Assembly (NCBI GenBank): GCA_037447605.1
Contig: CM074808.1
Span: forward strand, 4,211,674-4,275,673
Direction: 5' to 3'
DNA from: Zygnema circumcarinatum SAG 698-1b
Taxonomy: Eukaryota; Plantae; Zygnematophyceae
DNA length: 64,000 bases
Positions 23,978 to 64,000 of the stretch are shown piece after piece (position 1 is the first letter of the stretch; each line of letters starts with the position of its first letter). The notes beneath the pieces were generated by a model that saw only the letters and a program-made list of their open reading frames with translations, was not told the DNA's origin and searched no databases. Both the position numbers and the translations under genes were made by a program.

Positions 23978-24944
23978 TATAAGTTCACGAGCTCTTGGCA
24001 ATGGGTCAAATTGCCTTCTTTCTCCCACGTGCTATGTTCAACCCCATAGCCCAGCCACTTCACGAGATATTCGTGGCGGGAGGTCTGACCCCTTTTCACG
24101 GTTCGGTGGGTCTGAATGGACTCGACCTCGTACTCGAGGTCGCCTTCAATATCCACTGGGGGTGGAGGTGGCTGGATCCTCCCGTCACTCAAGTAGCGCT
24201 TTAGCAGACTCACATGAAACACCGGATGTATCTTCATGTGAGCCGGTAAAGCCAGCTTGTAAGCGACTTCGCCAATGCGGCTCAAGACCTTGAATGGCCC
24301 GATGAACCGTGGCCACAACTTACGGGTTCCCCCTCGAAGCTCTCGCCCAAACTGCCAGAGCCAAGAAGACGTCCGCTTCCCGTGCCGAACGCTGAAGCCG
24401 AGTCCGCTTATGACAAGATAGATCTTCGTCGGGATCGTAAGCCGCCAAAGAAGGTCGCCTTTGCACGCCGCATACAGCTTCTGACATGAGTTTTAACAAA
24501 AGATCTAACGGCGGGTGGGTGATCCCCCCCAGCTCCTCTCAAGCCCCAAGGGTCATCGTCCCGGTGGATGCCTTCATTCCACGAGGACGGCGGCTGATCC
24601 CTTGGCTGCAGGCGATTTAGAGGATGCTGACCAAAATTCAGAAAGAAGGGGGTCGTACCGATTGATTCCTGATGAGCATTGTTGATGGCGTACTCCGCCA
24701 ATGGGAGCAAGGTATCCCACTCATCCGGCGTGGGTCCCACGTAATGCCGCAGGAAATCTTCCACAATGCGGTTGACCCTCTCCGTTTGGCCGTCAGTTTG
24801 CGGATGAAAAGCTGTGCTGAGCGCTTGCTTGGTGCCCACGATTTTCAGAATTTCAGTCTAAAAGTGACCGGTAAATCGGGGATCTCTGTCAGAAACAATG
24901 GTGGACTGAAAACCATGCAAGCTCCACACCTTGTCAACGTAGAT
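23978..24944 (-). mobile_element. Chromovirus element A, 3' half (integrase core C-half + chromodomain)
   Basis: YVDKVW..TAFHPQTDGQTERVNR, WPRFIGPF (GPF/Y motif), YEVESIQTHR..YLVKWLGYGVEHSTWE (chromodomain); frameshifted; cut by gap at 23968. Confidence 0.9.
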
Positions 24945-25705
24945 GTAACAGCTGAGATCTGCCTCTTCAGCCTACGCGGAATCACACACCAGCACTCAGC
25001 AAAACAGAGTTCAGATCGAGAGGGATTCAGAGAGAGAGAGAGAGAGCTTCAGAGGGTCGCGCAGCCCTGGGCAGGGGTGCAACCGAATGCCGGTACGTTG
25101 GTTGGGTGACGACAGTCACCCACGCCCCTTTACGCTTCCGTCAACCTCCTAACAAAGATGGAGGATCGAAGTGTGGTCGCCCAATGGCATCGCCACGTGA
25201 AACCTCTCTCAATTCACCGGGTCGCAGGTGTGGCTAACGCATTAACGCCATCATCGCGAGATTCTCTGCGCAGGTGGCGCCGCTACAAGGCCAGCGACGC
25301 GGCGCCAGACATCGTAACGGTGCCGGATCCTACGCTACGCGGGTTCGACAGCCACCGTCCGGCATCAACGTACCCGTGAATTCAGCCTTACTCCAACGGG
25401 CGACTCCCTGGGATCCGGCCGCCGCCCGAAAGATTCACCGCGGACCGATTGGGTCCCTGCGTGGTGCCTGCAATCCCCAATCCTCCCCTAAGCCGAGGTG
25501 AGGGGACCTTTGGTCGCAGCCGTGGGGCGACCGCGACTATGCGTGGTGTGCCCCCTAATGTGCAGGAACCAGTTCTACGGTTCAACCTAGACCTCCGTGT
25601 GGTCTCATAGGGTATCCGGCTCCCAACCGCTGGGGTAGTATCGCATTGATGGAAACATAAAGCCACCGGCCCTATAACCCTTCCGGGGTGATCATGCTTT
25701 TCACA
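24945..25705 (-). repeat. 3' LTR of element B
   Basis: Minus strand reads TGTGAAAAG...TGTTACA; contains an (AG)n tract; homologous to 31557-32294. Confidence 0.8.
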
Positions 25706-25741
25706 TTGGCTTCCCCTGCGGAGAATGCGTGAACGCCTCGC

Positions 25742-27196
25742 TCACGCGGTGGGGTAAGAAGGCAACAGAAGTTTCAACGGGCACGCTGGCCGTAATCCCC
25801 TACGTGATAACCGGGAGGGCTCAGCGATAATCCCGGTCAAGTCCCTTTCCGAGTTGCGCGGGGACGGCTCAGGAACCCCCCGTGCCGCCCTCGCCCGCTC
25901 TCCTGCGGCCTGCGCCTCCCAGTACAAGTTGATGAGCTCCTGGCAATTGGTTAAGTTGCCCTCGCTCTGCCATGTGCTATGCTCAACCCCATAGCCCAAC
26001 CACTTCACGAGGTATTCGTGACGGGAAGATCGACCCTTTCTCACAATACGGTGGGCTTGAATGGTTTCAACTTCATACTCAAGTTCACCTTCAAGTTCCA
26101 CTGGTGGGGGAGGTGGTTGGATCCTCCCATCGCTACGGTAGACCTTTAGCAAACCCACATGAAAGACCGGATGCACCTTCACGTGGGATGGTAAATCCAA
26201 CCTGTAAGCGACATCATTGATTCGCTTCACGACCTTAAAAGGTCCGATGAAACGGGGCCACAGCTTACGTGTTCCGCCATAAGCTTTGAGTCTCAAGTTC
26301 GCCGTACTTAGCAACACCTCGTCGCCTTCGTTGAAGGTGAGTTGGGTACGGTGACGGTCAGCATAGGCCTTTTGTCGCGACTGGGCCGCTAGCAGGGTCT
26401 GCCGTGCCCTCTGCAGCGCCTCAGACATTAGTCGGACAAAAGATCTGACTGCGGGAGGTTGAGTCCCATCAGTCCCTCTCAGCTTCCAAGGATCGGGGTT
26501 TCTGTGGACGCCCATGTTCCACGGATCAGGGGGCTGATCCCTTGGTTGCAGGGGATTTAGGGGATGCTGCCCAAAGTTCAGGAAGAAAGGGGTGGTACCA
26601 ATGGACTCCTGGAAAGCATTATTGATGGCGTACTCTGCCACTGGGAGCAGTTCATCCCACCCATCCGGGGTGGGTCCCACATAATGCCGGAGGTAATCCT
26701 CCAGGATCCTGTTCACCCGTTCCGTCTGGCCATCGGTTTGCGGGTGGAAAGCTGTACTCAACGCCTGCTTGGTCCCAACGATTTTGAGCACTTCCGTCCA
26801 AAAATGGCCGGTGAATCGTGGATCACGGTCAGACACAATTTCTGACTGAAGACCATGCTGGCTCCACACTTTGTCAACATACAACCGTGCAATCTCGTCG
26901 GCCCCAGCGGTCTTAGTAGTTGGTGCAAAATGCACCATCTTGCTGAGCCGATCGACAAAGACGAGGATGGAGTCATGCCCCCGAGGTGTCACAGGAAGAT
27001 CTGTGATCAAGTCCATACCCACACTATCCCATTTCCGAAAAGGAGGTGTGAGGGGTTGCAGCTGGCCAGGGATCCCGCCAGCGCGGGGTTTGTTTCGTTG
27101 ACAAGTTGGACAAGCGAGTACATACGCTTTCACATCCCTCGAGAGTCCAAGCCACCAGAACTCTCGAGCAGTGCCTCGCAAATGGTTTTGGGGCAA
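25742..27196 (-). CDS. Integrase with GPF/Y motif and chromodomain (element B), uninterrupted ORF
   Basis: ORF 484 aa: CPTCQ zinc-binding part, MDLITDLP, SDRDPRFT, QTDGQTERVN, PRFIGPF, YEVETIQAHR..YLVKWLGY. Confidence 0.95.
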   Translation of the reverse strand: MPQNHLRGTAREFWWLGLSRDVKAYVLACPTCQRNKPRAGGIPGQLQPLTPPFRKWDSVGMDLITDLPVTPRGHDSILVFVDRLSKMVHFAPTTKTAGADEIARLYVDKVWSQHGLQSEIVSDRDPRFTGHFWTEVLKIVGTKQALSTAFHPQTDGQTERVNRILEDYLRHYVGPTPDGWDELLPVAEYAINNAFQESIGTTPFFLNFGQHPLNPLQPRDQPPDPWNMGVHRNPDPWKLRGTDGTQPPAVRSFVRLMSEALQRARQTLLAAQSRQKAYADRHRTQLTFNEGDEVLLSTANLRLKAYGGTRKLWPRFIGPFKVVKRINDVAYRLDLPSHVKVHPVFHVGLLKVYRSDGRIQPPPPPVELEGELEYEVETIQAHRIVRKGRSSRHEYLVKWLGYGVEHSTWQSEGNLTNCQELINLYWEAQAAGERARAARGVPEPSPRNSERDLTGIIAEPSRLSRRGLRPACPLKLLLPSYPTA

Positions 27197-30100
27197 CTCC
27201 CATGTGACCTCGGGTACGGAGGATCAAATGTAGCTCTCACCTGCACGAAATGGCCAGATGTATCTCCGGAACCTTGGGCACGACCAACCGCTGGCCGCGG
27301 TACCAAAAATCCGTCCTTAGACACCACTTTGTCCTTATAGCCATTACCTTGGCCATCCAGGAACAAAGGATCACCAGTATACCCCTCTTGGATCATCTGT
27401 CTGAGATCCGAGAGAGCAGGAGGGTTGGATCAAGGCCACCGGTGAGGATCTGCGACAAAGCATACCGAGACGGAGACTCGGGTTGGCCGCCCTCACCTCC
27501 GCCATCCTCGCTCCACCAACACTCTAGCCTTCCACGAGCCGCCATCTCATCCGTGCAAGATGCCGAGGCTGCCTACTCAGTGGGTCTGCTACATTCAGCC
27601 TTCCGGGCCGATAAACCCACTGGCAGTCAAACCTTTGGAGGAACTCAGACCAGCGTGCCTGCCGCCTAGACAGGGTCTGTTGGGTTGAGAGGAACGTCAG
27701 CGGGCGGTGGTCAGTGACCAGCGTGACCGCCTTCGCCCCCTCTAAATAGCACCGCCATGTCCTCAGGGCGTGGACCACTGCAAGCAGTTCTTGTTCTGTT
27801 GCAGAATAGTTGCGCTCAGCGGGATTCATTTTGCGGCTTTCATACGCTAAAGGTTGGCCATCTTGAAACAAGATCTACACTCCGCTTAATCCCGCCACGC
27901 CGTGTTCACTTCATAAGGTTTCTGGACGGGTCCGGGCTAGGATCGAGAGAGTGGGTGCTGCATCAGTGCATGGCGCATTAACCTTCTCATCGCATTCCCC
28001 GCATTCAGGGTCCATGTGAAGGGGACACCTAACGCGGTCAAATTAGCCGCGAGTAACCAACTTACTTTCAAACCCTTGATGAACTTCTACGAAAATAGTT
28101 CGCAAATCCTAAGCATGACCCTCAACCGATGCAAGTCAAGTTTGCGCCCAAGTTTCATCACCGAACTTTGGCGTGGTCTCGGTCAAGGCCCCCATCATTG
28201 GAGAATATGTGCCCAAGATAAAGCAACTCACGTTGCATGAAGTGACACTTCTTCCTCTTGGCATAAAATTGGTGCTTCCTCAGGGTCTCAAACACTTTCC
28301 GAACGTGTTCAAGATGTTCCTCCTCTGTCTTACTGAAGACAAGGATATCATCGAGGTAAACCAAAACAAACTCGTCCATGCCGATGAACATTTCGTTCAT
28401 CACGGCCTGGAAAGTTGCCGGAGCATTAGTCAATCCAAAGGGGCAAAACCTTATATTAGAAATGACCAATCGGCGTCCGGAACGCAGTTTTTGGCACATC
28501 AGCTTCCGTGACGCGGATCTGATGATACCCCTGAGCAAGATCAAGTGATGTAAACACTTTTGGCGCCGCGGGAAGACGATCCAACAGACATCAATACGCG
28601 GTAAAGCAAAACGTTCTTCTGGTGATCTTGTTGAGGGCGCCATAATCAATGCACATCCTCAACGCAGCCATCTTCTTCCCAACAACAAGATGGGCGCCCC
28701 AAAGGGCTTTGACCGCCTCTATCCTGCTCCCTTGTCACGAAAGCTGCCACCGCTACGCGAGATCTCTCTCGCTCTCTTCGGGCTTAACCGAGATCGCCGC
28801 CAAGGCGTTTTTCGCCGCTCAAGAGGGATCAGGTGCCCCACTTCAGATGGTGGCAACCTCTTTGAAGGTCGCCGTAGTGAAAACATCCTCAAATCATCCA
28901 ACGTAGGTTGGATTTTGGGTGGAACGGCCGAGAGCACATCCGTGGATGTGATCTGCCATTCCTGATCTTCGTCATGAACATCCTCAGTGGCTGCCATGAC
29001 ATGCACCATGAACAAGGTGCAACCTTCCTTAACCGCTTTGGCCAATGCATACCGGTGCGCAGATAAGTGAGTAGCTGTGCTGCTTGATACAGCGGATGGC
29101 TCGCTGTGGTGCAGGTGTTACTGCCACCATCAAGTGCGGGTAATGCAATGTGGGACAGAAAAGTCCATTTGTGCTTTGACCATGGTTAACCAAGCACTCC
29201 CCAAAATAACATCAGTACCAGGGGCCAGTTGTGTTAGAAGACACTTGACTGCCCCGGAGTAGGATTGGAGCTTGATCTTGAGTGTGACGCTACCAGAGAT
29301 CTGGCCCTTGCGTCCATCCCCGAAAGTAACACTTTCTGAATGGGGACTGCGGGTCAACCCAAATTGCGAACGCAGGTAACTAACAAAGCTAGCATCTGCT
29401 CCAAAGATTCAGCAGAGAACCGGGCCGGGTGGCTATTGGTTTGATCCTCGGCGAAGGTCAGCGGTAAGTACCCATGGGCAAGATGGAACATAGATCGCAC
29501 TATATGCGAGGGTTGAGGACGAGCCGTCCTCCACACCAATGTGTAGGGTGAGCCAACCAGCAAGCTGGTGGATCCTTCCATCTCTTGCACCAACGTGTGC
29601 CCTTTCCTCAACTGTTTCACCAACCGCCAAGTGGCGTTGGGAAAGGTGCGAACTGCCATGTGCTGAGGAACCAGCACATGCAGCCCAAGGACATGGGAGG
29701 TGTTTCCCATGACATGCAAAGCAGCCATGGCACATTGCATGAGAACATCATCGCCCATGACATTGAGGATAAAGACATGCCAATCACCATTCATCACGAC
29801 ATCCATAAACCCAGAAGGAGTCACTACAGTGGCAGGAGAGAGAGAAATGGAAGAAGGGAGTACATCAAACACAGCAGATCTTGCACTTCGTGAGGCCTGT
29901 CCACCAAGTTAAGAATGTCCAGGTTCTAAGAAACAAGAGTCTTTTATCCCCATGGCGTTCCCCATTCCTCCCCTAGTTTGCTAGCATGTCACCAAAGACC
30001 CACCCCCTAAGCCGTAAGCCAGCTTCCTCGCCCCTTTGCCCTTCTTGTCCTTGGTGTTCAGAGGGCAATCACGGGCCTTGTGCCCCTCCTTGCGGCAGCG

Positions 30101-31556
30101 GAAACACTTGTTCTCCCGCTGCATCTTCTCCATTTCCTCTGGAGTCAACTTCTGCGGCCGTGCAGTGGGTGGGCGGGCAGCCACTTCCGGCTGCTTCCGC
30201 TTGTTCTTTCCTGCCAGTTTGGCAGGAGCTGAGGGTCCCGCCTTCCACGACCCTGTCACGTCGCCCGACCTCTGCTGGGGTCGGGAAGGGCCTGCATCGC
30301 CTGCAGGGGCGGTGTCCAACTGAATGGCTTCATCAGCACAAACAGAGTCGGCCGGGTCCCACTGCCTCTCGTGAGTCCGCGGGGTTAGTTCTTAGTCGCC
30401 TCGTGGCTTCAAGCCATTCCCTCAAGTAGCAACTCAGCCCCCGTCTGTGCTTGTGAGTGGTGATTTGGGGCACACTTGTCACAGGTCTCGCGGTAAACGC
30501 TTGATCACTGCCACCATGTTCTCAAACTTATCCCGGCTCTCGCCGATCCAAGGTCTCAAAGTGTTTGATAAGTTCATCTTCAACTTATCCCAATCGCCCT
30601 GGGCCTCTATCAGATAGGCCTCATACAATACCTGTGATGCTCCTTCGAAAGTGCTGGGTAAGCAAGCTTACCACTGGAGTGGGGACAGCTTGGTCGCCGT
30701 AAGGTAGCCCCTTCGCTTGATTCCAAATCCACCGCCGGCTACAACGGTAGCCCGTGGTAGGATGTTCTCACCGTGTGCTAAGAGGGCTACCTTGGCCCGA
30801 CTCCGCCAAGTCCCGCAGGTTGCGGGGAGCAGTCCGAGGACCGGGATTCCTCCGCCCCAAGAATACACTTTAATGGGTCTCTTCATCGCTGGGGTGGTTC
30901 ACCCCATGGAGGGCTTCCCTCGCGGGAAAAACCAGTGGGTCCGACTGTACGGGTCGCCCTTAGCCGGGTTGGGGCGTCGGGACAGACGACGCTTACCGCA
31001 GTGGCTGCCTTAACCCCTTCCCCTCTTCGTGACTCCGCCGTGACATCCACGCCTCTACAACCGAGGGGTCGCATACCTTCGGACATCCTTCGAACCTCCG
31101 GGGGGCGCCCTAATCTATATTTTCGAGCTGTCCACCAAACGGCTACCGCGAGCCCCATGTCGCCCACCTTCCTGGAGTGTACCAATCTATTCACGCTCTC
31201 GCCTCCCTCACGCTTTCCCCGTGATCCTCAAATCCCCTGCCTCATTACCTTCTACGCCACAATGCGTGATGTGTGGGCCCCGGCAGTAGGGGCCCAGCTA
31301 AGCCACCGGAGCCACGGGCTCCGGTTGGGTGGGGAGAGGGGCGGTGGTCTCCGGGTGACCTTGATCACCCGTGGGCTCGGGACTCGGCCCCTCCATAGGG
31401 ACGGGCGTAGTCTCCGAGTTCTCCTCCATCTCCTCGTCCCGGGGAACGGGAGGTGGAGGTGGCGGCCCCGAGGGCCCCGGGTCCCCTCCGGCCCGGCGAG
31501 TGGTCACCATGACCCACTAGGTTCTCCAAAGAAGCATACGCATGCTCGATACTCAA

Positions 31557-32294
31557 TGTACGAAAATTAGACCGCTTCTTCACTTTACGGAATCACACAC
31601 CAAGATTCCTCGCCGAAAACAGAGTTCAAATGAGAGGGATTCGTAGAGAGAGAGAGAGAGCTTCGTAGGTCAGCAGCCTTCGGCAGGTGCAACTGAATGC
31701 TGGTACGCTGTTTAGCACGGCCAGCCACCATTTCTTTACGCTTTCCCTGCCGTAATCCCTCCTACCAGCGATAGAGGATTGGAAGTGGCCGCCTAATGGC
31801 GTATCGCGTTATCGCAGTTCCTTCAATTCGAATGGGTTTTGCGCTAAACGCACGTAACGCCATCGCGCTACGGGCGCTACACGCGCGCCAGTATATCGCT
31901 GTAATGGCCGATCCTGGCACATAAGGGGCGCGCTGTTCGGACAACAAAGCTGTACTGCCCGCATCAACGGGTACCGTGAATTGTACGGACAACGGGCGAC
32001 TCTGGGACTGGCCGCGCCCGAGATTCAACAAGGGACCGGATTGTCCCTGCGGTGCCGTAATCCCCAATCCTCCCTGCAAGGCCGCAGGAGGGGACCTTGG
32101 TCGGCCGTGGTGTGGGGCGCACTGCGATCATGTGGTGCCCCCACGCGGTGAAATCCGCTTCTACGAAACAACCTAGACCTCCGCGGGTCCTATAGGGTCC
32201 TCATGCCCTAACCGTTAGGGTACCGCATTGACGGAAACATAAAGCCACGCTGGGCCCTAAGTAAATCTCTTCCTCAGCGCATCAGAAGGCCACA
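31557..32294 (-). repeat. 5' LTR of element B
   Basis: Minus strand reads TGTGGCC...CGTACA; shares ggaatcacacacc, the (AG)n tract, caacctagacctccg and ggaaacataaagccac with the 3' LTR. Confidence 0.8.
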
Positions 32295-35200
32295 TGCTAG
32301 AGGCGCCACACCTCTTCCCGACTCTCCGAAAGTGGGTGCAAAGTGCACCATCTTGCTCAGACGGTCGACAAACACCATAATAGCATCGTGACCCCGTGGG
32401 GTTTCTGGTAAATCTGTGATCAAATCCATACCGATGCTCTCCCACTTACGAAAAGGGGGAGTGAGTGGTTGAAGCTGGCCAAGAATCCTGCCAGTGCGGG
32501 GCTTATCACGTTGACAGGTTGGACAGGCGAGCACATACGCCAAAACATCCGTCGTGAGTCCCGGCCACCAAAACTCACGGAGTACTGCCTCGGAGGTTTT
32601 GGCAACACCCATGTGGCCCCTGTAAGGAGGATCGTGCATCTCACTTAGAATGAGTCAGCCGCATGCTTCCAATACTCGGGAACGACTATCTCCGCTTGTC
32701 GCGCAAGTACTCAAAACCCGCCTCAGGAGCGCAAAGCATTCTTGTCCTTATAGCTACTACCGCCGCCCAAGAACATAGATCACCAAAGATAACCCCTCCA
32801 ATCATCTGCCTAAGATTAGAGAGTATAGGGGCTTCACCGCGGCGTTGGTCAGGTATCCATGGCTAAACACGTTGGGAAGGGAGAAGGTGAGGTGGCCGGC
32901 CCACCTTCTCGACCGCTTTGTTCCTCCAACACTCGGGTCGACGAGCGCACCAACCAGGCAAGATGACTGGACTGTCTGCTCAACGAATCGGCAACATTCA
33001 ACCTTCCTGGCCGATATACCCATTTGCAGTCAAATCTCTGGAGGAACTCGGACCAACGGGCCTGCCGCCTAGATAGTGTCTGTTGAGAGGAGAGGAAGGT
33101 CAAGGGCCGGTGGTCTGTGACCAGCGTGACGGCTTCCGCCCCCTCCAAATAGCAACGCCATGTCCTCAAGGCGTGAACAACTGCGAGCAGTTCCTGCTCA
33201 GTTGCCGAGTAGTTTCGTTCAGCTGGGTTCATCTTCCGGCTTTCATAAGCCAGTGGTTGGCCCGCCTGAAACAGGACAGCGCCAAGTGCGAACCCCGACG
33301 CATCGCAAACCACCTCATAGGGTTTGGTAGGGTTTGCCAACACCAACGTAGGTGCGGTGATGAGGGCGTGTTTGGTCCCCTCAAACGCCACCTGACATTC
33401 ATCTGTCCAGGTGTAGCGAACTCCAGATTTGGTTAGGTCTGTAAGTGGAGTGACTAGCTTACTAAATCCCTGAATGAATTTACGAAAATAATTCGCAAAG
33501 CCCAAGAAGGAACGCAACTGATGCAGATCCTTAGGAACAGCCCAAGTGGCAACCGCCGCAATTTTGCCCGGGTCAGGCTTGAGGCCGTCCTCTCCAAGGA
33601 TATGTCCAAGGTAGAGCAACTCGCGCTGCATGAACTGGCATTTCTTGCGTTTCGCATAAAATGTGTGCTGGCGTAAGACCGACAACACATTGCGAACGTG
33701 GGTCAAGTGGTCCTGTTCTGTTTTGCTGAAAACCAGAATGTCATCGAGGTAGACCAAGACGTAATCGTCCATGCCGGTGAACATCTCGTTCATCACAGAC
33801 TGAAAGGTTGCCGGTGCATTTGTCAACCCAAAAGGCAGTACCTTGTATTGGAAATGACCAATAGGCGTACGAAACGCAGTCTTTGGTACGTCAGCATCCG
33901 TGACCCGGATCTGATGGTAGCCCTGGGCCAGATCGAGCGAAGTGAAAATTCGCGCCCCATGCAACCGGTCTAATAAGTCATCTATTCGAGGTAAAGCATA
34001 ACGATTTTTTATCGTGATTTTATTAAGCGCCCGTTAATCAATGCACATTCGCAAGGACCCGTCTTTCTTTCCCACAAATAGGATAGGGGCCCCAAAAGGG
34101 CTCTGACTGGGCTCAATCCAGCCTTTGGAGCGCAGATTCGCCAGCTGCTTCCGCATTTCTTCGGTCTCCTTGGGGCTCAATCGATAGATTGGTCGCCAAG
34201 GTGGTTTCTGCTCAGGCTCAAGGGGAATAGTATGCCCCACGCCACGCGCAGGCGGAAGCCTTGAGGGGAGGTCCTCTGGGAAAATGTCCTGAAATTCGTC
34301 AAGTAAAGATTGGATCGCCAGTGGCACGGGTGGTAACGACTCTGAGGCAGTAGGTAACCATTCCTGGTCGCCGTCATATACAGCCTCGATCTCATCGACG
34401 AGGTGCACATAGAAAAGTACACAACCCGTTTTCACGGCTTTCGCCACCTGCATGGCGGAGCACAAGTGCGCCGCATCTGGATGGAGGGGGGGAACAACCG
34501 TGGGTATACCTGGTAATAAGGTGACCCGCCGAGCGCCACTGCGAACCACGCAGTTTGGAACTGCAAAATCCATCATTGCCCGGACTGACTGCAACCACTG
34601 ACTGCCTAAAATCAAGTCAATGCCAGGAGTCAGAATTGTGACCAAGCACCGAATCTGCCCGGAAAAAGCTTGAATTCGCAATTGGGTAGTCACACAACCG
34701 AGGATCTGCCCTTTACGACCATCGCCGAACGTGACTGTATCGGAGCGGTTCAGTACAAGGGAGTCATCTAACAAACGGCGAGTTCAGAAATTGCCGCTGC
34801 CGAATCAAATAAGGCGAGCGATGCATCTACCTTTCCACAACCCCAAAGAAGGTCATGGCCCGTGGGATCGGGCCAAACACGGACCTGGCGACAACCAACG
34901 CAGCGGACGCGCCGGGCGCCAGCGAGCTGGAACGAAGCGCCGCAAGAGGTGCCGCGGGCTCGAAGTCGCCCCAAAGACACCAACGGGTGACTTACGCCAA
35001 ACTGCACCACTTCTTCCAACGGGCGTGGCCGTAAACAAGTAAGTGATGGGGACGGCCGCGAAGCAAGATGCGCATGTACCGACACCAGCATTGTAGTAGC
35101 GCCCCCGCCAAAGCGCATCAAGGACACTTTCAAACAGATCGGTAGTTCCGGTAGGGTTCAGAATCCAGATTTCAGCAGGGTCATTCCATTGCGCAACAGA

Positions 35201-35775
35201 AAACTCAAGAGAGGTCATTCGGGTGGAGAGGGAGAACAAAGAGTCATTCAGATATTCCGGGCAATGCAAAACAAAAATATCTGACTCAAGGGGCTGCCGG
35301 CCCATAATATTCAATAAATCACTGGAAAAGGGTACAACAAAATCCCTACGCCTGGCAGCTCCAACAACCATTCCCCGCCTCACTACCACCGCAAATAACC
35401 TCTAGGATCAGGTGGAGGTTCGCTTTTCCGGCCGTGAGCTAGTCAATCTTAGGGATGCCTTTCACGCAGCCAAATGCCTCACCGTCGGCACCGCAGAAGA
35501 TCGCCCTCCTTCTGAGCCTCTGTCCGCTTGGGACGCCAACTTGGGACTTGCCGCCAAGGGCTGGCTACCTCAAGACGCTTGGCCCCCTCCCCGCCCAATG
35601 CTACCCGAAGGGTGGGTTCTCCCACCAGGCGCAGTTGGAGCCGAGGGTACAGGGACCAAGTCCCACGCCAAGGGTCTCGGGCCACAGGTTCAAGGCCACC
35701 GCTGCTCACCATGCCAAGATAAAACAGATCTGCGCCCCACAGCCCACCCAGGGCTTGTAGCAGCGGGTTGAAAGC
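32295..35775 (-). mobile_element. Chromovirus element A, 5' half (gag C-term, extra domain, PR, RT, RH, integrase N-half), truncated at a telomeric tract
   Basis: Degenerate knuckle ~35450-35530, ALFDSA protease site ~34800, ORF 34034-34774 (PR-RT start), ORF 32849-33964 (LDLAQGYHQI, YLDDIL, DASG), ORF ending MVHFAPT at the LTR boundary. Confidence 0.9.
32849..33964 (-). CDS. Reverse transcriptase + RNase H (element A)
   Basis: ORF 371 aa with FTSLDLAQGYHQI, PFGLTNAPATFQ, YLDDILVFS, VVCDASGFALGAVL, TEQELLAVV, VTDHRPL. Confidence 0.95.
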   Translation of the reverse strand: MHGARIFTSLDLAQGYHQIRVTDADVPKTAFRTPIGHFQYKVLPFGLTNAPATFQSVMNEMFTGMDDYVLVYLDDILVFSKTEQDHLTHVRNVLSVLRQHTFYAKRKKCQFMQRELLYLGHILGEDGLKPDPGKIAAVATWAVPKDLHQLRSFLGFANYFRKFIQGFSKLVTPLTDLTKSGVRYTWTDECQVAFEGTKHALITAPTLVLANPTKPYEVVCDASGFALGAVLFQAGQPLAYESRKMNPAERNYSATEQELLAVVHALRTWRCYLEGAEAVTLVTDHRPLTFLSSQQTLSRRQARWSEFLQRFDCKWVYRPGRLNVADSLSRQSSHLAWLVRSSTRVLEEQSGREGGPATSPSPFPTCLAMDT

Positions 35776-35782
35776 AACAAAA

Positions 35783-35822
35783 CCTTAAAACCCTAAAACC
35801 CTAAAACCCTAAAACCCTAAAA
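35783..35822 (-). repeat. Interstitial (TTTTAGGG)n tract
   Basis: ccttaaaa followed by four ccctaaaa units, at the point where element A gag breaks off. Confidence 0.9.
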
Positions 35823-35914
35823 TCTCACACACAACCGGACGCATGGTCGACGCCATTTCTTCCCTCACGAGAAAGTTTGTGTGTGGTTTTTTTTTTATTT
35901 TTTTCCCAATTTAG

Positions 35915-36400
35915 GGCTACGTGGCAAAACCTGATTGGATAAAAAACATACCCCATTTCCTACAAACGATCCAAAAAAACACCACAACACCCACGTGGCA
36001 ATTTCTGACTGGATAAGAGGTATACCACATTCCGTTCGACAATCCAAAAAAAAAAAAAAAGCTGATACGTGGCAATAACTGACTGGATATTCAGTTTAGT
36101 TAAACACGCACATTCACACACGCACACGCATTTTCTGCACATTCGATCCAACAAAACACACAACCAATCAGGACGCGCGACGTGGCAACGTCAAATTCGC
36201 GGCAACTATACCCCATTTTCATTAAATTCACCTTTGACAAAATCGAATCCGTAGGTCACATAAAACAAAAACACGTGGCAATAACTGAATACCCCATTTT
36301 CTGCACATTCGATCCAACAAAACACACAACCAATCAGGACGCGCAACGTGGCAACGTCAGACTCGCGGAAACTATACCCCATTTTCATCAAACTCATCTT
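35915..36400 (+). repeat. Degenerate tandem repeat with six ACGTGGCAA motifs
   Basis: acgtggcaa at ~35919, 35993, 36067, 36180, 36273, 36347, interspersed with ataccccattt and ttcgatccaacaaaacacacaaccaatcaggacgcgc units; one unit is also present at 20605-20720. Confidence 0.8.
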
Positions 36401-36794
36401 TGACACCTTAATCGAACTCGTCGTACGGATGAAAACGATGACAAAGCTTTTGCCTACGGCAACGCAAAAACAAAATAAAATTAGAATAACGGGGAAGGTG
36501 AAAGGAGAGTGGGGAGAGAGAAACACAAACATTACATGCAGTTCAAGAAGCAAGACATAGTAGTAGGGAGAAGACTTCGTCGAGCTATTTATTTACACAA
36601 AAGCAGTGCCGATGTTGTCTAACTTGAGATCCTAATTACCTTGAGAGCCTTGTTGCAAAGTACTTCTTGCTCTATATTTAGCAATGCACTCCTACTTTCC
36701 TTTAGCGTGTTCACGATAAATTTCCAACAATTCTTTGCGATTTGATTCAGGTTTTTTAAAAATGAGAGGTCCTGCCCCCGCAGCAGTGATCTTT

Positions 36795-39778
36795 TCCGGA
36801 TTATTGTTTGTGTCGATGATGATTTTTCCGAGAGCATTGTGAACATGCACATCTTGACTGCCTTCGCTCACCAAGTGCTCCAAGAATTGAGTGCAGCAGG
36901 CGCAGTCGATTGCTGTATCAGCACCGCAGACAGGAAATAAGTTTAGAAGACAAGGATGTGGAGAAAGAACTTCCCCTGTGCTCGGAGGGTTGTAAATGTT
37001 CGTGTTAGAAAGAAACATTGGATGAGCACAACCCCTGCAAGAGAGCATATGCTCAAGACCTGGGTCAATGCTACGTTATTTGGAAGACCATAGCCAAACC
37101 ATTACGTAACCATTGCGTAAAGACGTTTATAAAATATATAAAACAAGCAAATGTTTCAGGATGCGTTGAGATATTGTAGCCTTAAATAGCCTCAGACGGG
37201 TACAGCATGACAATGACACCATTGCACTATGTCAACCGTACAACGAACTAAAAACGTTCATATGTTTGGAGCCCCGTTGAAGTTGTTGATTCTATCGTAA
37301 ATATGTGAAACACGTTGTCCTTTAACGTCCACTTTGCATGCTTCTAGCTAGCGCAAACATTTGTTTAACACAGCTAGGAAAACCAAGAATTCCAAGCTAA
37401 GCACACACAAAGGCAGAGTGCATATGCCACTCACCGTTTCTCGCATTCTTCGACGAGTGGTTCGACTGGCAGCAGCGAGCGCACAGAGAGGATGAGGTTT
37501 TTGATGAAGTCTTCCGGGCTCTCATCGTCGAGGAGTTGGTCTACAACCAGCGGTGCATTTGCTTGGATTCACCTGAAGATCAGGTTCAAACATACACCAA
37601 ATCAGGAATGAAATGTATAAACTGCAGCACACAAGGACGGTTTGCTCTAATAACATCATTACAGAATCTCCCTCTGTTCGTGATACAGAAAAGGTAGGGC
37701 CGGCTGCCAAACAAGGTAAGTTGACGATGTTTAAGTTTACCGATGGTTAAAATTGTTGAATCAAAAATGTTCAAAAGTGAAGCAGGCTTATACTGCTCTG
37801 AGGGCAGTTACAAAGGGCAGAATTTTCACTGACCTTCTGCACATATCCCTCGATGTAGCGCAGCATATTGTTCGTGTACACGTAATGTGTGAGATCAGGC
37901 ACGAAATTGAAGCGATCGCAGACATTGATGAGAGGCCTTGCGTCGGGTAGCTTTGATTCCATGAGAAAATTCTTTGTGCGCTCCGCATCATAGAAGTTGG
38001 ACTCTCGAGTCACTCGCTCAACCTCCTTGATCTGCCCTGTCTTTGCAGCCGCCTCGATGTATTTGAAATGAATTTCAGGATCCTCACTGCAAGACACGAG
38101 AAGCAAAGGCAAGATTAAGCACCGGAGAACTTCGCCCCTGCATGTCCAATCACCACAAATCTAAGCCTTGAAACAGAGTGCAGGAATCAGGAGTTCTAGC
38201 AGGACAAACACAATGTTTCATAAGCTCAACCACAAATAACGGTAACTTGTCCCATGGCTGAAAGCTGCTCGACGTCAAAGCCTCGAGAACGGAAGTTTTG
38301 GAACAGAATGTGCCGAAGAGAATGCATCGAATTGAGCTAACGTTTGCTTTTGTTTGTAAAATCGATTGCCAATGCTAGTCGGCATAAAGAATGCTTAAAT
38401 CAACGCACCTGGTGGACAAATAGGCCCCCAAGAAGAAGAAAAGACCCTCATATGACTTGAACTGCTCGAACAGCTTCACACAATCGTGGACTCCCAATTG
38501 GTCCGCGTACTCCTTGGCGACCTGCTCAGAAGGGAACCCCAGCCATCTCCAGTCAAATACACGTCAGCAACCTACCAAATAAAGCGCACTGCTCAGAATT
38601 TGTGCTCAAATTTTTAGTGAAATTCATGTGGCATCAGCGGCTAAGCTACAACTTGCAGGAAAAGACGACCAAACAAACAGTTAAGAAAAGTCAGTTGATG
38701 AATTGATCCTCTAAATGACTCCTCCACAGTGTGCCAGGAAAGACAGCTGACTCAGGACAAAACATAGGTTTGGTAATAAAACATGCTCCCTCTGATGATC
38801 GAGTGCCAGTTGGCAAGAGGATCACCAATGATAGCACAACAAAAGCCTGGGAAGGATAGACACACATGTCTGAGTTTGAGCAGTGACTACATGGTTTTAT
38901 GTACGGCCCAGAATAATGGCTGGATAGACACAAACCTGTACTACAATCTGGAGATTCCCGCGCATGTTGACCAGCAAAAGCTCCTTCATGCACTCAAGCG
39001 CCCATTCCCGTGACAACGTCCCGTAGAATTCGACCAATGACTGCAGCCCACACTCCGTCGAAGTTCATGTCAATATTACCCTCTCTACCCCTCGACTCCC
39101 AAACCCCTTTCGCTCTCCCTCTTCCTCTCACTCTCCCTCCACCCTCCAATTCTCCACTTGATTCTCCTGAATCTTCACCGCTCTGCTCATTCTATTCATC
39201 TACCCCTGCCTCTATTCCTCTCTTCACACTTCCCTCTCCACTCGCCTTCCCTTGTCTGTCCACTTCTTCCCTCTCATCTCACCCTCTCTCCAGCATTCCT
39301 CTCTTAAATCCAACTTTCGAAGCCCGCAAAGAGGCATGACCAACCTGTGGCTCAATTGCATGAGTGTTCACAACCACACGCTTGATGTCCGGTAGGTCTG
39401 TGTAATGCTGCATACGTGGGCAGTAACAAAGTCAGCATTCAAGCATCTGAGGTGGCATTTAAGGAAATGAAAAAGTTGGTTTGAAAGCCGGACCCTGACA
39501 GCACATTGCCCCAAAGATAACATTCTACCAAAGAAGGAACTTCCAGGGAGGGAAGTCACATTCAAAAGTCCTACAGGCCAGCGCCCTGCTAGTTTCTTCA
39601 TTGTATCTACCAACAGAAAGACTCTAGGCCAGCTAATACACACCTGCAGAGCACGCATGTTCAGTCCAGCCTTCTCACACAACTGAGCTATCCTTGGGCG
39701 ATCGTAATGACTGAACATGCCGTTCGCAAGAATGGCGTCGGCAACATTTGGGAAGGTCACCAAATTAATTTCCAAAAC
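36795..39778 (-). pseudogene. CHC: Clathrin heavy chain, internal fragment only (7 exons)
   Basis: [38 protein letters not shown] (39644-39778), [64 protein letters not shown] (37834-38086), [34 protein letters not shown]. No N- or C-terminal exons found; substitutions at normally conserved sites. Confidence 0.85.
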
Positions 39779-40059
39779 CTGCACATTTCCCAGCTCCAAT
39801 GTTCATGTCTGATATTAAAATTAACCGAAGATAGGTTACGATTGGGATAAACTTTTCCAAATCATCAATGCATGGTGTGATTGACAAGGAAAAGGCAGGC
39901 CGTATCTGGCCAAGAAATGAGTATGCCTAATGGGTGCTTCACGATAGGACGAATCACAGTTCGAAAGGTCATACTCTGACATTTTAAAACATGCCTCCAC
40001 TCCAGATGAAAGAAGCGAACATATTTGGTCCGCTCCTACCCCCTGCCTCCTGCCACTTC

Positions 40060-45067: not shown

Positions 45068-45099
<32 letters not shown>

Positions 45100-55511: not shown

Positions 55512-55512
55512 T

Positions 55513-59419: not shown

Positions 59420-62400
59420 AAATTTTGTACTCATGCTTTACTTAGTTACGATGTCTGAAGGATTTAACTTTCGAGGAAATGCCACGCGTGGTCGGGTATC
59501 GCGTCGAGATGATGCCAGTTGAAGTCAATGTTGACTCCGGACCTTGTCAGCGTGGGGAGTGGGTGTTACTTGCCGTGAACCGGTTTGTCTTGCTTGATAG
59601 GTCTGAAATGCACCATCTTGCTTTCGGCCGATTGACGAATCTGAGAATGGAGTCAAAACTGGCTGTCAGCGTGTAAATGCGTGATTGCCGAGTCCGTTAC
59701 TACTGTTTCTCGAAACTTGCTTTGTAAGGGCGTGGCTGGCGAGGCGAAGCGAAGCCCGCACGTCGCTTTTCACGATGCTTGAGGCTTATCCTTTGAATTG
59801 ACAAGTTGGGCATCTTGGTCTGTCTGCCTCAGCGTCCATTTGTAATTACGACCACGGAATTTCTCGGGCGTGCCGGGTTTAGCAGCTCCGCGCATGACAC
59901 CACATGCGGAGGATCGTCGCATCTGGCTTCATTGCCAGCTGCCGTCTGAATCGGCCTTAGATACGTACTTCAGCTTGCTCACGTGGTACCAAAAGGCACC
60001 GTCCGAGCGAGCTTTGTTCTTATAGCCGTGCGCCCAGCCGTCCGAGAACAAGGATCGCGGTGTACCTAGAGTGAATCATGCAATGCAGCGAAATCGAGCG
60101 GGAGGTTGGCTAACGTCGGTTGGTGGAGGGTTTTATAATAACATCTTGGAGATGTATGACGGGTTGGCCGACCGCCGTCTCCGCTGTCTACGTACCGCCC
60201 AATACTCGGTCGACTGGCCATCATCAGTAGATGAATGGGTTCAGCTGGCTTCCGATTGGGTCATGCATTCGGCCTTCGGTACGTATCTTTGTTCGAGCCG
60301 TTGGAGGAACTTCGAGGCCAGCGTGCACGCGCGCTTGTGAGTTTCGCTGCGCGTGAAAGAGCGTCCTAGGTGGGCGGTGATGCAGCTCGGCGTATTTGCC
60401 GCCGCCCTCGAATAGCAGCGCCCGTGTCCTTGGTAGGTGAACCCGACCCGAGAACCACTGGCTGCGTGGCCGAGATAGTTTTGTTATTTGGGTTAAATGC
60501 TGCGACTTTTGTATGAGGTTGGTAGATGCTGGAGCAAGGCCGCTAAAGCGAACTTCGGAAGCGTCGCGTACCACTTCAAATGGTAGCGTGGGATCGGCCA
60601 ACTTTCAGCGTAGGTCTTTGTCGTAGCCAGCATGTCTATAACAATCCAAAGGCCGTCTGGCGGCTGCTGGTAATCACGTCATGGCGTGCAGGCGTGTCAA
60701 ATTGGTAGAAGGTGTCACCAATTTACTAAAGCGCGGATAAACTTACGAAAATAGTCGCAAATCGAAAAGGCCGCCGTGATGGAGATCGGTGATGCGACCC
60801 GATATCTTATTTCACCAACGAACGCGCCTTGTTTGGATCGGGTTCGATCCACGATCGTTCCAAGATATGCCAGATACAACAACTCCGTTGCATGAAGTTC
60901 TGAGCTGCTATAGCCCAGCGCAAAAGTATTTTCATGACGCCTCGAACTGCTGGCGTCTCGCGCTTGAGATGTTGTTCGGTCCGTCTTTCTTTGCGAATGC
61001 GAGGATATAAATCCGGGTGGAGCGGGACAAACTTCGTCCGTGCCGGCCGAACATCTGGTTAAATGGCGACTTGGAGCGAAGCACGGGCGTTAGTCGGTCA
61101 GGCACCTTGTATTGGAAGTGACCGATTGGCGTTAGCCCGATCTTAGGCATGTCCAAAATGGCGGATTTGATGATACCGCAGAAGGCGGAGTCCAGCGAGG
61201 GTGAACACCTTAAGCCCGCGTAGAAGCGATCCAGTAGTCGTCCCGATGCAGCGGTAAAAACAAACACGTGCTTTCGCAGTGATCTTATTGAGTCAACGAT
61301 AATCGTCGCGTCCATAAAGATCCATCCTTTTCCAACAAAAGGATAGAGCTGAAAGGGCTTTGCACGGGATTCAATCGACCCCTTATCCCGGCGCCGGATG
61401 CTTGAGAGTTGTTTTCCGCATCTCCTCAGTCTCCTTTGGGCTAAGCCTATAGATAGGCCTCCAAGGAGGTTTCTGTTCTGGCTCAAGGGGTATGGTATGC
61501 CCCACCCCGCGGGCTGGAGGCAAACCCCTTTGCAGATCGTCTAGGAACACATCCCCAAACGCCTTCAACAAAGGTTGAAACGCAGCTGGAACAGTTGGCA
61601 ATGCCTCACCCGCAGTGGGTTGCCATTCCTGGTCCTCGTCATGAGCATCCTCGGTTGCCGTCATGACTTGCACCATAAACAAGATGCTATTCGTTTTTAG
61701 TGCCTTGCCTACTTGCATGGCTGAGCACAGAAACGACAAAGACGACTGCGAAGAGGCCAGTCCAGAGGGACAGCCTGGTTGCAGCGTTATGCGTCTACCC
61801 TCACTGCGGAGGACGCAATTAGGGACCACAAAATCCAGCTGAGCACCCATATGCGTCAGCCATTTGCTCCCCAAGAGAAAGTCTGTTCCTGGGGCCAACA
61901 TCGTCAACAAGCAATTGACGACTCCGGAGTAGGACTGAATCTTCAACTTCACGCTGACGCTGCCAAAAATCTGGCCCGTGCGTCCATCCCTGAAAGTTAC
62001 ACTATCGGAATGAGGCTGGACTGCAAACCCTGCAGTCCTGACAAAGGCTGCGCTAACAAAGTTAGCGTCCGCGCCAGTGTCTAGCAGAATGACTGCTGAG
62101 TGCCCCTCGGCTGAACCTTGGAAGGTCATAGCACGATGGGCCACGTGGAAAATGGACCGTAGCACATTTGGTGCGTGAGGACGCGCAGTCCTCCACACAA
62201 GGGAATGAGGGGACTTCACCAGCGCACTGGTGGGGGATCCCTGCATCCACCTAAGAAGGGAGAAGCCCTCCTTCCATAGCTTTACCACTTCCCACTCAGT
62301 CTATGGGTAAGCCCTCACTGCGACATGCTGTGGGAGCAAGACCCGCAGACTGAGCACATGGTCCTTCGACCGCAGCAAGCGCAGGGCATCAAATGCGCAC

Positions 62401-64000
62401 TGTACTAAGGCATCACTGCCATGGCATTCAAGAGAACAACATGCCATTCATTTCCAAAGACAACATTCAAAAACATTGTTGGAGTCACAGACGTAGAAGG
62501 TAGCAATGAATAGTCAGCAGGGAATGCATCGCACACAAATAACATGTTCCCACCGAAAATTCCCCCACTCACATTGAGAATGTCATGTCTTCGTGGAATA
62601 CAACATTCTACCCCAGTGACTGCAGCCAACGTGCTGCCCCCTCCACTAACAGGCCCACCGGCAGCGACTCCTAAGCTGCCGGTGGGGAGCCGTTTTCCGC
62701 CGGCCCCTTTCCCTTCCAATCCTTCTTGAAAGATGGGCAGTCGTAAGACCTATGCCCCACCTTCCTGCAGCGGAAACACTTATTTTCCGCTCTCAAAGTC
62801 TCCATCTCCTGTGGAGCAAGTTTCGGCGGCTGTGGCCGTTGGTGCTGCTGCTGGTGAGAGGAAGGAAATTTCCTCTTGCCATTCCCCTTAGGTCGGTCGC
62901 CTGGCGCACCAGTCTTGCGCGGCTGTTTGACCGTGTCCGCCCGCGGGGGACGGGAAGGCCCTGCACCATCTGTAGACCCAGCGTTAGTTTGAATCGCAGC
63001 TGCAAACATCTGCTCGTCATCCATAGGCCCCCAAGGTTCCAGGGTACGAGGATTCAGCCGAAGTTGTTTCCGGACGTATGGCTTCAGGCCATGACTGAAC
63101 CTAAAAAGAACTCTTCGTTCGTCAGCTGGAACTTGGTAATTTGCGCCCACGCGCCACGCAATTCCCGGAGGAATTCAGCCGCGCTTCTAGTCTGCGTAAG
63201 CGACTGGAACCTGTCCCAAGCCGCAGCACTGGGATCCAGGATTCCAAAATGTTTGAGAAGTTCAGACTCAAACTTCTCAAAGTCATCCCCGATGATTGCT
63301 GCCCGGCTGGAGTACACACTCCAAGCAGCGCCTCGCAGGGCGGGTGACGCAAAGTTCACCGATTGATTGATAGGGCATTGGGTGGCCCGCAGGTACCCTC
63401 GCGCCTGCCCCATCCAATGCTCAATCGGGGTTTCAGAACTAGACCCGACCCCCGCGCAGGAGGTCGGAGGACGCCGCTGATTTCTGGGAAGGTCGTCACA
63501 GCCGAACGAACCCCCAATGGTCGCCAGCCCGTAACAGCGCCAGCGAAGGTGGGTAAGCTGACTGGCGGCCATACCTCCCAAAGGGACGGCAGCGGCTGCT
63601 CCTGCAAAGGGGAAACAGCAGCCTGCGCCCGGCGAGGACCCAGCGAGGGCTAGGAATGTGGAACCCGTCCGCTGCCGAAGCAGCGGAGGTGGGGAGGAAG
63701 CCTCTTGTCCTACAGGCTGCGCTCCTTTATTCCCCTAAGGCAACACGCCTCTCCCTCTTGTATCGGCAAAGACCACAGGAGGAGGGGATAAAGGCCTACC
63801 AGTGGCTGGAGGGGGAGGGTCCCCACGGTTCTGGCAAACCTGCTCGAAGATCTCGCCGAGGAGGCGCCCCACGTTTTGCTCGTGCGCGTCTTGCTTGCTC
63901 GCAATGCGAGCAAGCGCCTCCTCTGTTGGTAATTCCATGGTGGAACCACCCTCGACAGAGTAAGCCTCCCTTTCACGGCTTTCTTGAGTACGTAGACATC
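59420..64000 (-). mobile_element. Ty3/Gypsy element C (same lineage as A/B), degenerate in RT-INT, 5' end beyond the window, 3' end cut by the CT array
   Basis: gag from 63938 (MELPTEEAL..; FESELLKHFG; FRFSHGLKPYVRKQL; CFRCRKVGHRSYDC), extra domain ~62190-62590, protease ILLDTGADANFVS (ORF 61383-62288), PWRPIYRLSPKETEEMRK, PIGHFQYKV, FEVVRDAS, degraded integrase to ~59480. Confidence 0.85.

What the first reader, a model, noticed from the sequence alone, without database searches (positions are those of the whole stretch)
34870..35390. Chromovirus carries a Dam-like N6-adenine methyltransferase-like module between the Gag knuckle and protease
Seen: element A has an extra ~140-aa segment between the CCHC knuckle and the protease: DLLNIMGRQPLESDIFVL..FSLS..SVAQWNDPAEIWILNPTG..LFESVLDALW..GVGT. 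Established: canonical chromoviruses go Gag-PR-RT-RH-INT-chromodomain, while Dam-like N6A-MTase domains (P-x3-D-x-F..F-S..W..NPP[YFW] pattern) are known in DIRS and some algal retroelements. Inference: the order P-x3-D-I-F, FS, W and LNP matches that fold, with a degenerate catalytic NPP motif. A chromodomain-targeted retrotransposon that also carries its own adenine-methylation writer or reader would be an unusual self-marking or defence-evasion system.
Basis: partly seen in the sequence, partly recalled or inferred. Interest (0 to 1): 0.85.

Follow-up and report, generated by a model that had tools for sequence, protein, structure and literature searches.

The report
Motif-less methyltransferase domain in algal retrotransposon
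A damaged Gypsy-type jumping gene, in what is likely a charophyte green alga, carries between its coat protein and protease a conserved domain predicted to fold like an adenine methyltransferase but lacking the usual active-site motif, so it is likely an inactive version of an element type first described in 2026 and reported absent from this plant lineage.

Summary
The extra segment is real, and two more retrotransposon copies in the window (B, C) carry it at the same position. Its 5' half is under purifying selection. No copy hits Pfam Dam, and a direct comparison with NPPF-bearing profiles fails. Homology comes through a bridge protein (P0243), profile matches (E 2-3e-5) and a family model (pLDDT 83). 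That model's best matches are PCIF1 (Foldseek E 2.7e-4) and KsgA/Erm/DIMT1 N6-adenine methylases (Z up to 9.5). The RT tree nests the copies among DAM-chromoviruses; 62 of 74 relatives with a readable upstream segment carry the domain, but only 17 keep NPP[FYW]. The window's lineage reads LN-x-x-G with no stacking aromatic, so it is probably inactive. DAM-chromoviruses are described (bioRxiv 2026), and this scan met them four times on other DNA. New here: the host is a streptophyte (clathrin exons; TTTTAGGG repeats), a group where the preprint reports none, and the motif was lost repeatedly while the domain was kept.

The parts
35102..35338 (-). Copy A: reliable 5' half of the N6A-methyltransferase-derived domain (helix, strand, helix, strand with WILNPTG, helix)
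   Evidence: z 8.2 vs P0243 (0/1000 shuffles); 22.8 bits vs B/C/P0243 profile (0/1000); 14 synonymous of 25 variants; secondary-structure order as in the family model
35147..35167 (-). Copy A: position of the motif-IV (NPPF) equivalent, reading WILNPTG; aromatic absent
   Evidence: no substitution listed at 35148-35169 among related contigs
34853..35101 (-). Copy A: 3' half of the domain, scrambled by indels (decay or assembly error)
   Evidence: indels relative to related contigs, no cover at 34930-35029; no similarity to relatives; pLDDT under 50
35450..35500 (-). Copy A: degenerate, frame-broken CCHC knuckle remnant; most of gag and the 5' LTR are missing
   Evidence: no Pfam hit for the frame tested
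34034..34815 (-). Copy A: aspartic protease and start of RT
   Evidence: 60% identity to copy C's protease region; relatives carry protease Pfam families
32849..34033 (-). Copy A: reverse transcriptase and RNase H
   Evidence: Pfam RVT_1 E 2.5e-35, RT_RNaseH E 6e-35
32316..32654 (-). Copy A: integrase N-terminal part only; no core C-terminus or chromodomain
   Evidence: Integrase_H2C2 E 4.5e-18; tblastn map
29453..29925 (-). Copy B: homologous domain, best preserved in the window (one frame break near 29865); motif position reads HVFILNVMG
   Evidence: 11.4 bits vs iterated Dam-derived profile, 0/300 shuffles; z 15.3 vs P0243
30062..30109 (-). Copy B: CCHC zinc knuckle
   Evidence: Pfam zf-CCHC E 1.7e-6
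25742..27223 (-). Copy B: integrase, SH3 and chromodomain
   Evidence: Pfam Chromo E 3.2e-15, SH3_Tf2-1 E 1.5e-21, rve E 1.5e-5
62121..62590 (-). Copy C: homologous domain (one frame break, one stop); its end is in frame with the protease
   Evidence: ORF 61386-62300 carries protease Pfam hits; z 14.7 vs P0243
62734..62781 (-). Copy C: CCHC zinc knuckle
   Evidence: zf-CCHC E 1.6e-5
31588..32248 (-). LTR-like repeat between A and B
   Evidence: 66-68% identical to 24977-25666
24977..25666 (-). LTR-like repeat after B's chromodomain
36794..39784 (-). Intron-bearing clathrin heavy-chain fragment (about residues 595-904), used to place the host lineage; no N gap between it and copy A
35779..35822 (.). 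TTTTAGGG-type repeats abutting the truncated 5' end of A
   Evidence: repeat type reported for Klebsormidiophyceae and Chlamydomonas (PMC3622300)

Best explanation
The segment is a conserved domain at the front of Pol in a family of Ty3/Gypsy chromoviruses, likely descended from the DAM/PCIF1-type N6-adenine methyltransferase of DAM-chromoviruses, predicted to keep that Rossmann fold, and likely inactive because the NPP[FY] motif is gone. Shown: position, selection on the protein sequence, motif loss, and damage to copy A. Inferred: it is made as part of Gag-Pol, is probably cut free by the adjacent protease, and is probably kept as a non-catalytic binder of the element's RNA or cDNA (or of a partner protein) in the particle. 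In a streptophyte host, where 6mA and AMT1 are reported lost, a writer would have no host system to maintain its mark.
For: Position: three copies in the window. The sister-lineage protein P0246 has CCHC (350), this domain (413-570) and protease (581) in one 1760-aa ORF. Descent: in the RT/RNase H tree (FastTree; 84 hits, A, a 120-aa RNase H piece of B, 3 outgroups), A and B pair with P0002/P0003 (0.84) in a 0.99 clade nested among NPP-intact DAM elements. 11 of the 120 listed protease-RT relatives carry PF05869, and 62 of the 74 with an upstream segment of 100 aa or more join an iterated profile seeded on the 17 NPP[FYW] ones. Bridge: a window-only profile run over 1.84 billion proteins gave 3 hits; one, P0243 (E 7e-5), has the domain directly before a protease, with a chromodomain downstream; the other two are repeat proteins. 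P0243+A+B+C vs the Dam-derived profile without the six nearest relatives: hhalign E 2.9e-5, 0/40 column shuffles. With P0002/3 added, vs the NPP-only profile: E 1.8e-5, 0/40. Fold: an AlphaFold model from 13 rows with no NPP-bearing row has pLDDT 83 and pTM 0.76. Foldseek ranks human PCIF1 first (E 2.7e-4, TMq 0.54). VIA ranks DIMT1, ErmC' and KsgA first (Z 9.5-8.4, rmsd 3.3-4.4 over 128-135 residues), with PCIF1 at 7.7, E. coli Dam at 7.0 and T4 Dam at 6.7. Phage DNA N-6-adenine-methyltransferases appear in the viral library (TMq 0.54, E 4.9e-3). Selection: B vs C dN 0.40, dS 2.04, against protease 0.27 and 2.18. Motif: LNPTG, LNVMG, LNAM-G and LNAQG in A, B, C and P0243. Iyer et al. (PMC4738411, passages) derive the DIRS domain from PCIF1 and call DIRS copies likely inactive.
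Against: No direct sequence hit: Pfam, PHROGs (best E 0.04), PDB sequences (best E 0.053) and the Atlas were blank. The window copies alone do not match NPP-intact profiles, and P0243+A+B+C vs NPP-only reaches only E 0.018. A alone does not score on the iterated profile (99/300 shuffles), and C is marginal (10/300). The good model is of P0243, not of A; A's own model has pLDDT 43 and no Foldseek match (best E 1.3). VIA Z of 8-9.5 is only modestly above the tool's stated background of 7-8. The Asn and Gly of LN-x-x-G are kept in 4 of 4 lineage members, which could be a changed active site. Inactivity and binding were not tested. dS is near saturation, and the 25 variants are not independent. 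Motif loss is also common in relatives from unknown hosts, so the link to the host's loss of 6mA is untested.
Confidence: 0.65

Rival explanations
1. Structural relic: a decayed DAM domain kept only because Gag-Pol needs an open, foldable spacer before the protease; it binds nothing in particular.
For: The domain diverges faster than its neighbours between families (A vs B 29% identity over 41 codons, against 60% in the protease). Nine Haematococcus-named relatives in the same radiation have no such segment, so elements can work without it. The motif positions vary widely across the 62 relatives.
Against: B vs C dN/dS is about 0.2, close to that of the protease and Gag. The whole fold of about 150 residues is kept rather than shrinking to a linker, in 42 relatives without an N[PA]P-aromatic motif.
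Confidence: 0.17
2. Active methyltransferase with a non-canonical site: the conserved Asn of LN-x-x-G is the catalytic residue, and the element marks its own cDNA or RNA.
For: Asn and Gly are kept in A, B, C and P0243. In A's model the strand ends at Leu60, so Asn61 falls where motif IV usually lies. The fold matches active N6A methylases.
Against: There is no aromatic for adenine stacking and no conserved Pro. The motif-I acidic residue is not conserved. Alignments through P0002/P0003 put Leu in the Asn column. Even NPP-intact eukaryotic DAMs gave no 6mA in E. coli (preprint).
Confidence: 0.12
3. An unrelated alpha/beta domain that resembles a methyltransferase by chance.
For: Direct searches were blank. 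Identity to structural matches is 8-13%.
Against: It has the same position as Dam in the same RT radiation, a significant transitive profile chain, and all 40 Foldseek rows shown but one, and the 50 VIA rows, are methyltransferase-fold entries by title or recalled family.
Confidence: 0.06

Closest known systems
Chlorophyta DAM-chromovirus-like clade of DAM-LTR retrotransposons (Fernandez-Moreno et al., bioRxiv 10.64898/2026.05.21.726589; read parts 1-4 of 5; supplements closed)
   Same: Ty3/Gypsy chromovirus architecture with a Dam-like domain in Pol. The RT nests among NPP-intact elements whose domain precedes the protease (52-60% RT/RNase H identity to them). Compact alpha/beta methyltransferase fold.
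   Different: No PF05869 hit, so it would be missed by that paper's screen (hmmsearch, E 1e-5). The NPP triplet and following aromatic, which the paper calls well conserved, are lost. The host is a streptophyte, where the paper reports DAM-LTRs absent. The main text does not state the domain's position for this clade (the terms 'gag' and 'protease' do not occur); figures and supplements were not seen.
DIRS1-type retrotransposon methyltransferase domain, and PCIF1/CAPAM (Iyer et al. 2016, PMC4738411, passages)
   Same: The best structural match is PCIF1, from which that review derives the DIRS domain. The review also judges DIRS copies likely inactive and possibly binding element transcripts.
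   Different: Here the carrier is an integrase-bearing Gypsy element, not a tyrosine-recombinase element, and the domain is N-terminal to the protease.
KnitGypsy-Dnmt3 of Klebsormidium nitens (de Mendoza et al. 2018, PMC5890265, passages)
   Same: Charophyte Gypsy element with a methyltransferase domain in Pol.
   Different: That is a cytosine DNMT3 with conserved functional residues. No DNMT Pfam hit was seen in the ORFs scanned here, and the fold matches N6-adenine enzymes.

Membership tests
Ty3/Gypsy chromovirus | PR-RT-RNase H-integrase order | tested here: met
   for A and B
Ty3/Gypsy chromovirus | chromodomain after integrase | tested here: met
   Met in copy B (E 3.2e-15) and in the nearest relative P0002. 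Copy A is truncated before it.
Ty3/Gypsy chromovirus | pair of near-identical LTRs with target-site duplication | tested here: inconclusive
   Two LTR-like repeats only 66-68% alike; A lacks a 5' end; target-site duplications not examined
DAM-LTR (DAM-chromovirus-like clade) | Dam profile hit at E 1e-5 or better (the preprint's operational definition) | tested here: not met
   0 Pfam families for A, B and the first C piece; P0243, P0002 and P0003 have no PF05869 hit; control P0004 hits at E 2.1e-6
DAM-LTR (DAM-chromovirus-like clade) | Asn-Pro-Pro plus aromatic catalytic motif | tested here: not met
   LNPTG, LNVMG, LNAM-G, LNAQG
DAM-LTR (DAM-chromovirus-like clade) | domain homologous to the Dam domain of these elements | tested here: met
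   Transitive only; direct comparison negative
DAM-LTR (DAM-chromovirus-like clade) | RT groups with DAM-bearing chromoviruses | tested here: met
   (FastTree local supports; no Repbase or REXdb references in the tree)
DAM-LTR (DAM-chromovirus-like clade) | host encodes AMT1 and copies are enriched in 6mA | not testable with these tools
   No whole genome held; no modification data
Class I Rossmann N6-adenine methyltransferases | Rossmann-type methyltransferase fold | tested here: met
   Family model (P0243 first):
Class I Rossmann N6-adenine methyltransferases | full seven-stranded sheet | tested here: inconclusive
   The model lists 8 strands, but sheet membership could not be read; the preprint describes a five-stranded sheet for eukaryotic DAMs; A's own model is unusable
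Class I Rossmann N6-adenine methyltransferases | acidic SAM-binding residue at the end of the first strand | tested here: inconclusive
   Not conserved among A, B, C and P0243, and this region aligns poorly; A's Asp lies at the start of the strand
Class I Rossmann N6-adenine methyltransferases | SAM binding and methyl transfer | not testable with these tools
   needs a bench assay

The most novel reading that the evidence does not exclude
A methyltransferase-derived pseudoenzyme is the usual state of the Gag-protease junction in a large radiation of green-lineage chromoviruses. Catalysis was lost at least 3-10 times while the fold stayed under selection, and such elements persist in streptophyte algae that lack the AMT1-6mA system. 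The domain's main job would then be non-catalytic (binding element RNA or cDNA, or reading or shielding methylated adenine) rather than writing 6mA, which would also explain why intact versions showed no activity in E. coli.
Probability: 0.35. Interest if true: 0.65.

Novelty: new variant of a known kind. Interest (0 to 1): 0.42.

Why it matters
The 2026 preprint ties DAM-LTRs to hosts with AMT1 and 6mA, partly because it found none in Streptophyta, and proposes that the domain writes 6mA. Its screen needs a Dam profile hit. Here a streptophyte carries several families with a derived domain that falls below that threshold, and 42 of 62 domain-bearing relatives lack an N[PA]P-aromatic motif. 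This can be read as support (catalysis decays where the host lacks 6mA) or as a challenge (the domain is kept for something other than catalysis). Either way the comparison is directly testable with pairs of natural intact and motif-less domains. Copy A itself is a damaged fragment of little value.

Tried and rejected
Pfam scans of A, B and the first C piece: no family. Word-indexed search with A's ORF against longer proteins: 0 of 759 candidates at E 1 or better. tblastn of A's ORF against the window did not find B or C. NPP-only and first-iteration profiles against the whole six-frame window: nothing better than E 1.7. hhalign of the window copies alone against NPP-intact profiles: not above shuffles. 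Atlas: thioredoxin-like leads at 0.80 or below for B and nothing for A, rejected as within chance range. PHROGs and PDB-sequence searches blank. Folding A's own ORF: low confidence, no match. The search for related loci with A's RT: 0 viral contigs and 8 metagenome loci at 39-52% identity; the 4 with the protease readable in frame showed no such domain directly before it, as far as the frame ran. The genome index was unreachable and no whole genome is held, so copy number, AMT1 status and intact copies could not be checked. No RNA holder was listed, which says nothing about expression; contig depth was not used as copy number. P0241 and P0242 were dropped as repeat proteins. Literature: 9 searches. 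None returned a paper on a motif-less Dam-derived domain in streptophyte chromoviruses; two searches returned no paper at all. Subscription journals and the preprint's supplements were not searchable.
Full report
Observation. The finding lies on the minus strand, in a stop-free frame at 35401-34853, and the quoted words are there. Upstream are a frame-broken knuckle remnant (35499-35482) and, about 300 bases further, TTTTAGGG repeats (35779-35822), so copy A lacks most of gag and its 5' LTR. Downstream are protease, RT, RNase H and an integrase that stops at about 32316. The window holds two more copies with a segment at the same place. B has a CCHC knuckle (30109-30062), the segment (29925-29453) and Pol through the chromodomain (to 25742). 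C has a knuckle (62781-62734), the segment (62590-62121) and a protease in frame with the segment's end. B and C are 52% identical over 128 codons, and A matches B+C by hhalign at E 3.3e-5.

Quality of copy A. Contigs from 4 public runs laid on 34780-35520 show single-base indels against the window at several places in 35054-35098 and 34818-34870, and none covers 34930-35029 (the tool warns that a hole proves nothing). The 83 residues after DALWR match neither P0243 nor the B/C/P0243 profile, whereas the 74 residues before do, at 0 of 1000 shuffles. A's own model is ordered only in about the first 80 residues (mean pLDDT 43) and finds nothing. The 3' half, including GVGT, is therefore unreliable. 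For the 5' half, 25 of the 39 substitution rows (those at or above 35099; 14 rows in the indel zone were dropped) give 14 synonymous and 11 non-synonymous changes and no stop, against an expected synonymous share of 0.23 (p 4e-4; the variants are not independent). Between B and C, dN is 0.40 and dS 2.04, against 0.27 and 2.18 for the protease. The segment is a maintained coding domain.

Direct tests of the Dam idea failed. Pfam gave nothing for A, B or the first C piece. A's ORF found no relative among 759 candidates. The window copies did not beat shuffles against NPP-intact profiles. PHROGs, PDB sequences and the Atlas were blank.

Indirect tests succeeded. A's protease-RT query gave 265 proteins; the best 120 were listed, and 11 of them carry PF05869. 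In those inspected, the Dam domain lies directly before the protease (output partly cut). Of the 120, 74 have an upstream segment of 100 aa or more; 17 of these have NPP[FYW]. An iterated profile seeded on those 17 converged on 62 (E below 0.01 at Z 1000). The 12 left out were nine Haematococcus-named proteins, P0062, and the borderline P0010 and P0014. B scores 11.4 bits (0/300 shuffles), C 1.5 (10/300) and A nothing (99/300). Three more relatives have NAP[FYW], so 42 of 62 lack the motif. In an RT/RNase H tree, A and a 120-residue piece of B are sister to P0002/P0003 (0.84), within a 0.99 clade nested among NPP-intact elements. A window-only profile searched against 1.84 billion proteins gave 3 hits. 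P0243 (E 7e-5) has the domain before a protease and a chromodomain downstream; the other two are repeat proteins. P0243 bridges the gap. It scores 21.6 bits on the iterated profile (0/500) but only 2.9 on the NPP-only one (7/500). P0243+A+B+C matches P0002/P0003 at E 2.6e-6, the Dam-derived profile without the six nearest relatives at E 2.9e-5 (0/40), and the NPP-only profile at E 0.018. With P0002/P0003 added, the last improves to E 1.8e-5 (0/40). P0246 shows Gag knuckle, domain and protease in one ORF.

Fold. An AlphaFold model of the P0243 domain, with 6 window rows and 6 nearest relatives and no NPP-bearing row, has pLDDT 83 and pTM 0.76. Foldseek ranks human PCIF1 first and second (E 2.7e-4 and 5.9e-4, TMq 0.54-0.55), followed by other SAM-dependent methyltransferases. 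VIA, over 48,161 chains, ranks DIMT1 (Z 9.5, rmsd 3.7, 134 aligned), ErmC' (8.9) and KsgA (8.8) first, then PCIF1 (7.7), E. coli Dam (7.0) and T4 Dam (6.7); the tool puts background at Z 7-8. The viral library gives mostly unnamed phage proteins first and several named DNA N-6-adenine-methyltransferases. Iyer et al. (PMC4738411, passages) derive the DIRS domain from PCIF1, which fits the top hit.

Active site. A, B, C and P0243 read LNPTG, LNVMG, LNAM-G and LNAQG. Profile alignments place the Leu in the catalytic Asn column, as for Phe in P0002 and His in P0003. A shift of one residue would keep the Asn, and the two models end the strand one residue apart, so the register is open. In both registers the aromatic that stacks on the target adenine (established for N6A methylases; recalled) is missing. 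The acidic residue of motif I is not conserved. I infer that the domain is inactive. On the RT tree pruned to 51 labelled tips (14 intact, 37 degenerate; 41 unlabelled tips dropped), a loss-only count gives 10 losses on the resolved tree, at least 7 when nodes below 0.9 are collapsed and at least 3 below 0.95 (domain swaps not considered). Motif-less domains occur in full-length ORFs, for example the 19-member cluster of P0012.

Host. A clathrin heavy-chain exon on the same gap-free stretch gave 651 hits. Of the best 120, 110 bear land-plant species names, 3 bear gene ids that I recall as Mesotaenium, Spirogloea and Ginkgo, and 7 are unnamed; none is named as a chlorophyte. The gene is only a seven-exon fragment (residues about 595-904). 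TTTTAGGG repeats are reported for Klebsormidiophyceae and for some Chlamydomonadales (PMC3622300, passages). Together these point to a streptophyte, probably a klebsormidiophycean alga. The same coded organism's runs hold both the element and the 33-41 kb stretch. AMT1 status could not be tested.

Comparison with what is known. bioRxiv 10.64898/2026.05.21.726589 (parts 1-4 of 5 read; passages; supplements closed) defines DAM-LTRs, including a Chlorophyta DAM-chromovirus-like clade. It finds NPP well conserved, saw no activity in E. coli, and reports DAM-LTRs absent from Streptophyta. Its screen required a Dam hit at E 1e-5. [quoted passage not shown] PMC5890265 (passages) describes a different charophyte Gypsy element with DNMT3. 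This scan noted DAM-bearing Gypsy elements on four other genomes, one with replaced catalytic residues (unchecked notes), and nothing on this genome. The element descends from the DAM-chromoviruses but fails two defining features (profile hit and motif), so I file it as a variant and not as a member.

Verdict. The domain is real, its ancestry was guessed correctly, and it is probably a pseudoenzyme rather than a 6mA writer. The architecture is known; the streptophyte host and the widespread motif loss are the new points. Interest 0.42.

Noticed in passing
window 23978-35500: Three to four Gypsy pieces lie head to tail (A, B, and a further integrase-chromodomain piece at 23978-24995), separated by LTR-like repeats only 66-68% alike. 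By eye, the repeat at 31588-32248 has a purine tract before it and a primer-binding-site-like word after it, as if shared between A and B. Nested insertion, recombination or a chimeric assembly.
   Followed up: partly
window 36794-39784: The clathrin heavy-chain gene is present only as seven spliced exons (about residues 595-904); no 5' or 3' exons were found in the window. It ends next to short ACGTGGCA-containing repeats (35900-36400, also at about 20620), TTTTAGGG repeats and copy A. Possibly a captured or truncated gene fragment.
   Followed up: partly
window 43479-47807 and 55512-59372: Two inverted arrays of about 4 kb of a 7-base purine-rich unit (AGAGAGA-type consensus; 628 and 558 copies); the second starts at a 9-base TTTTTAGGG-type run (55455-55512).
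   Followed up: no
window 49853-51800 and 51816-53760: A 1.95-kb tandem duplication, 99.3% identical, across a 10-N gap; probably an assembly overlap.
   Followed up: partly
window 59400-61400: The RT-integrase region of copy C is riddled with frameshifts while its gag, domain and protease are well preserved; this looks like low-accuracy sequence rather than age.
   Followed up: no
window 48666-49169 (+) and 14560-15159 (+): Weak Pfam hits below cut-off: copia-type gag (E 1.7e-5) and MFS transporter (E 7.2e-5).
   Followed up: no
P0055, P0079, P0085, P0089, P0107-P0114 (Haematococcus-named): A well-supported chlorophyte clade inside the same RT radiation shows no such domain before the protease, which suggests complete loss in that lineage.
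   Followed up: partly
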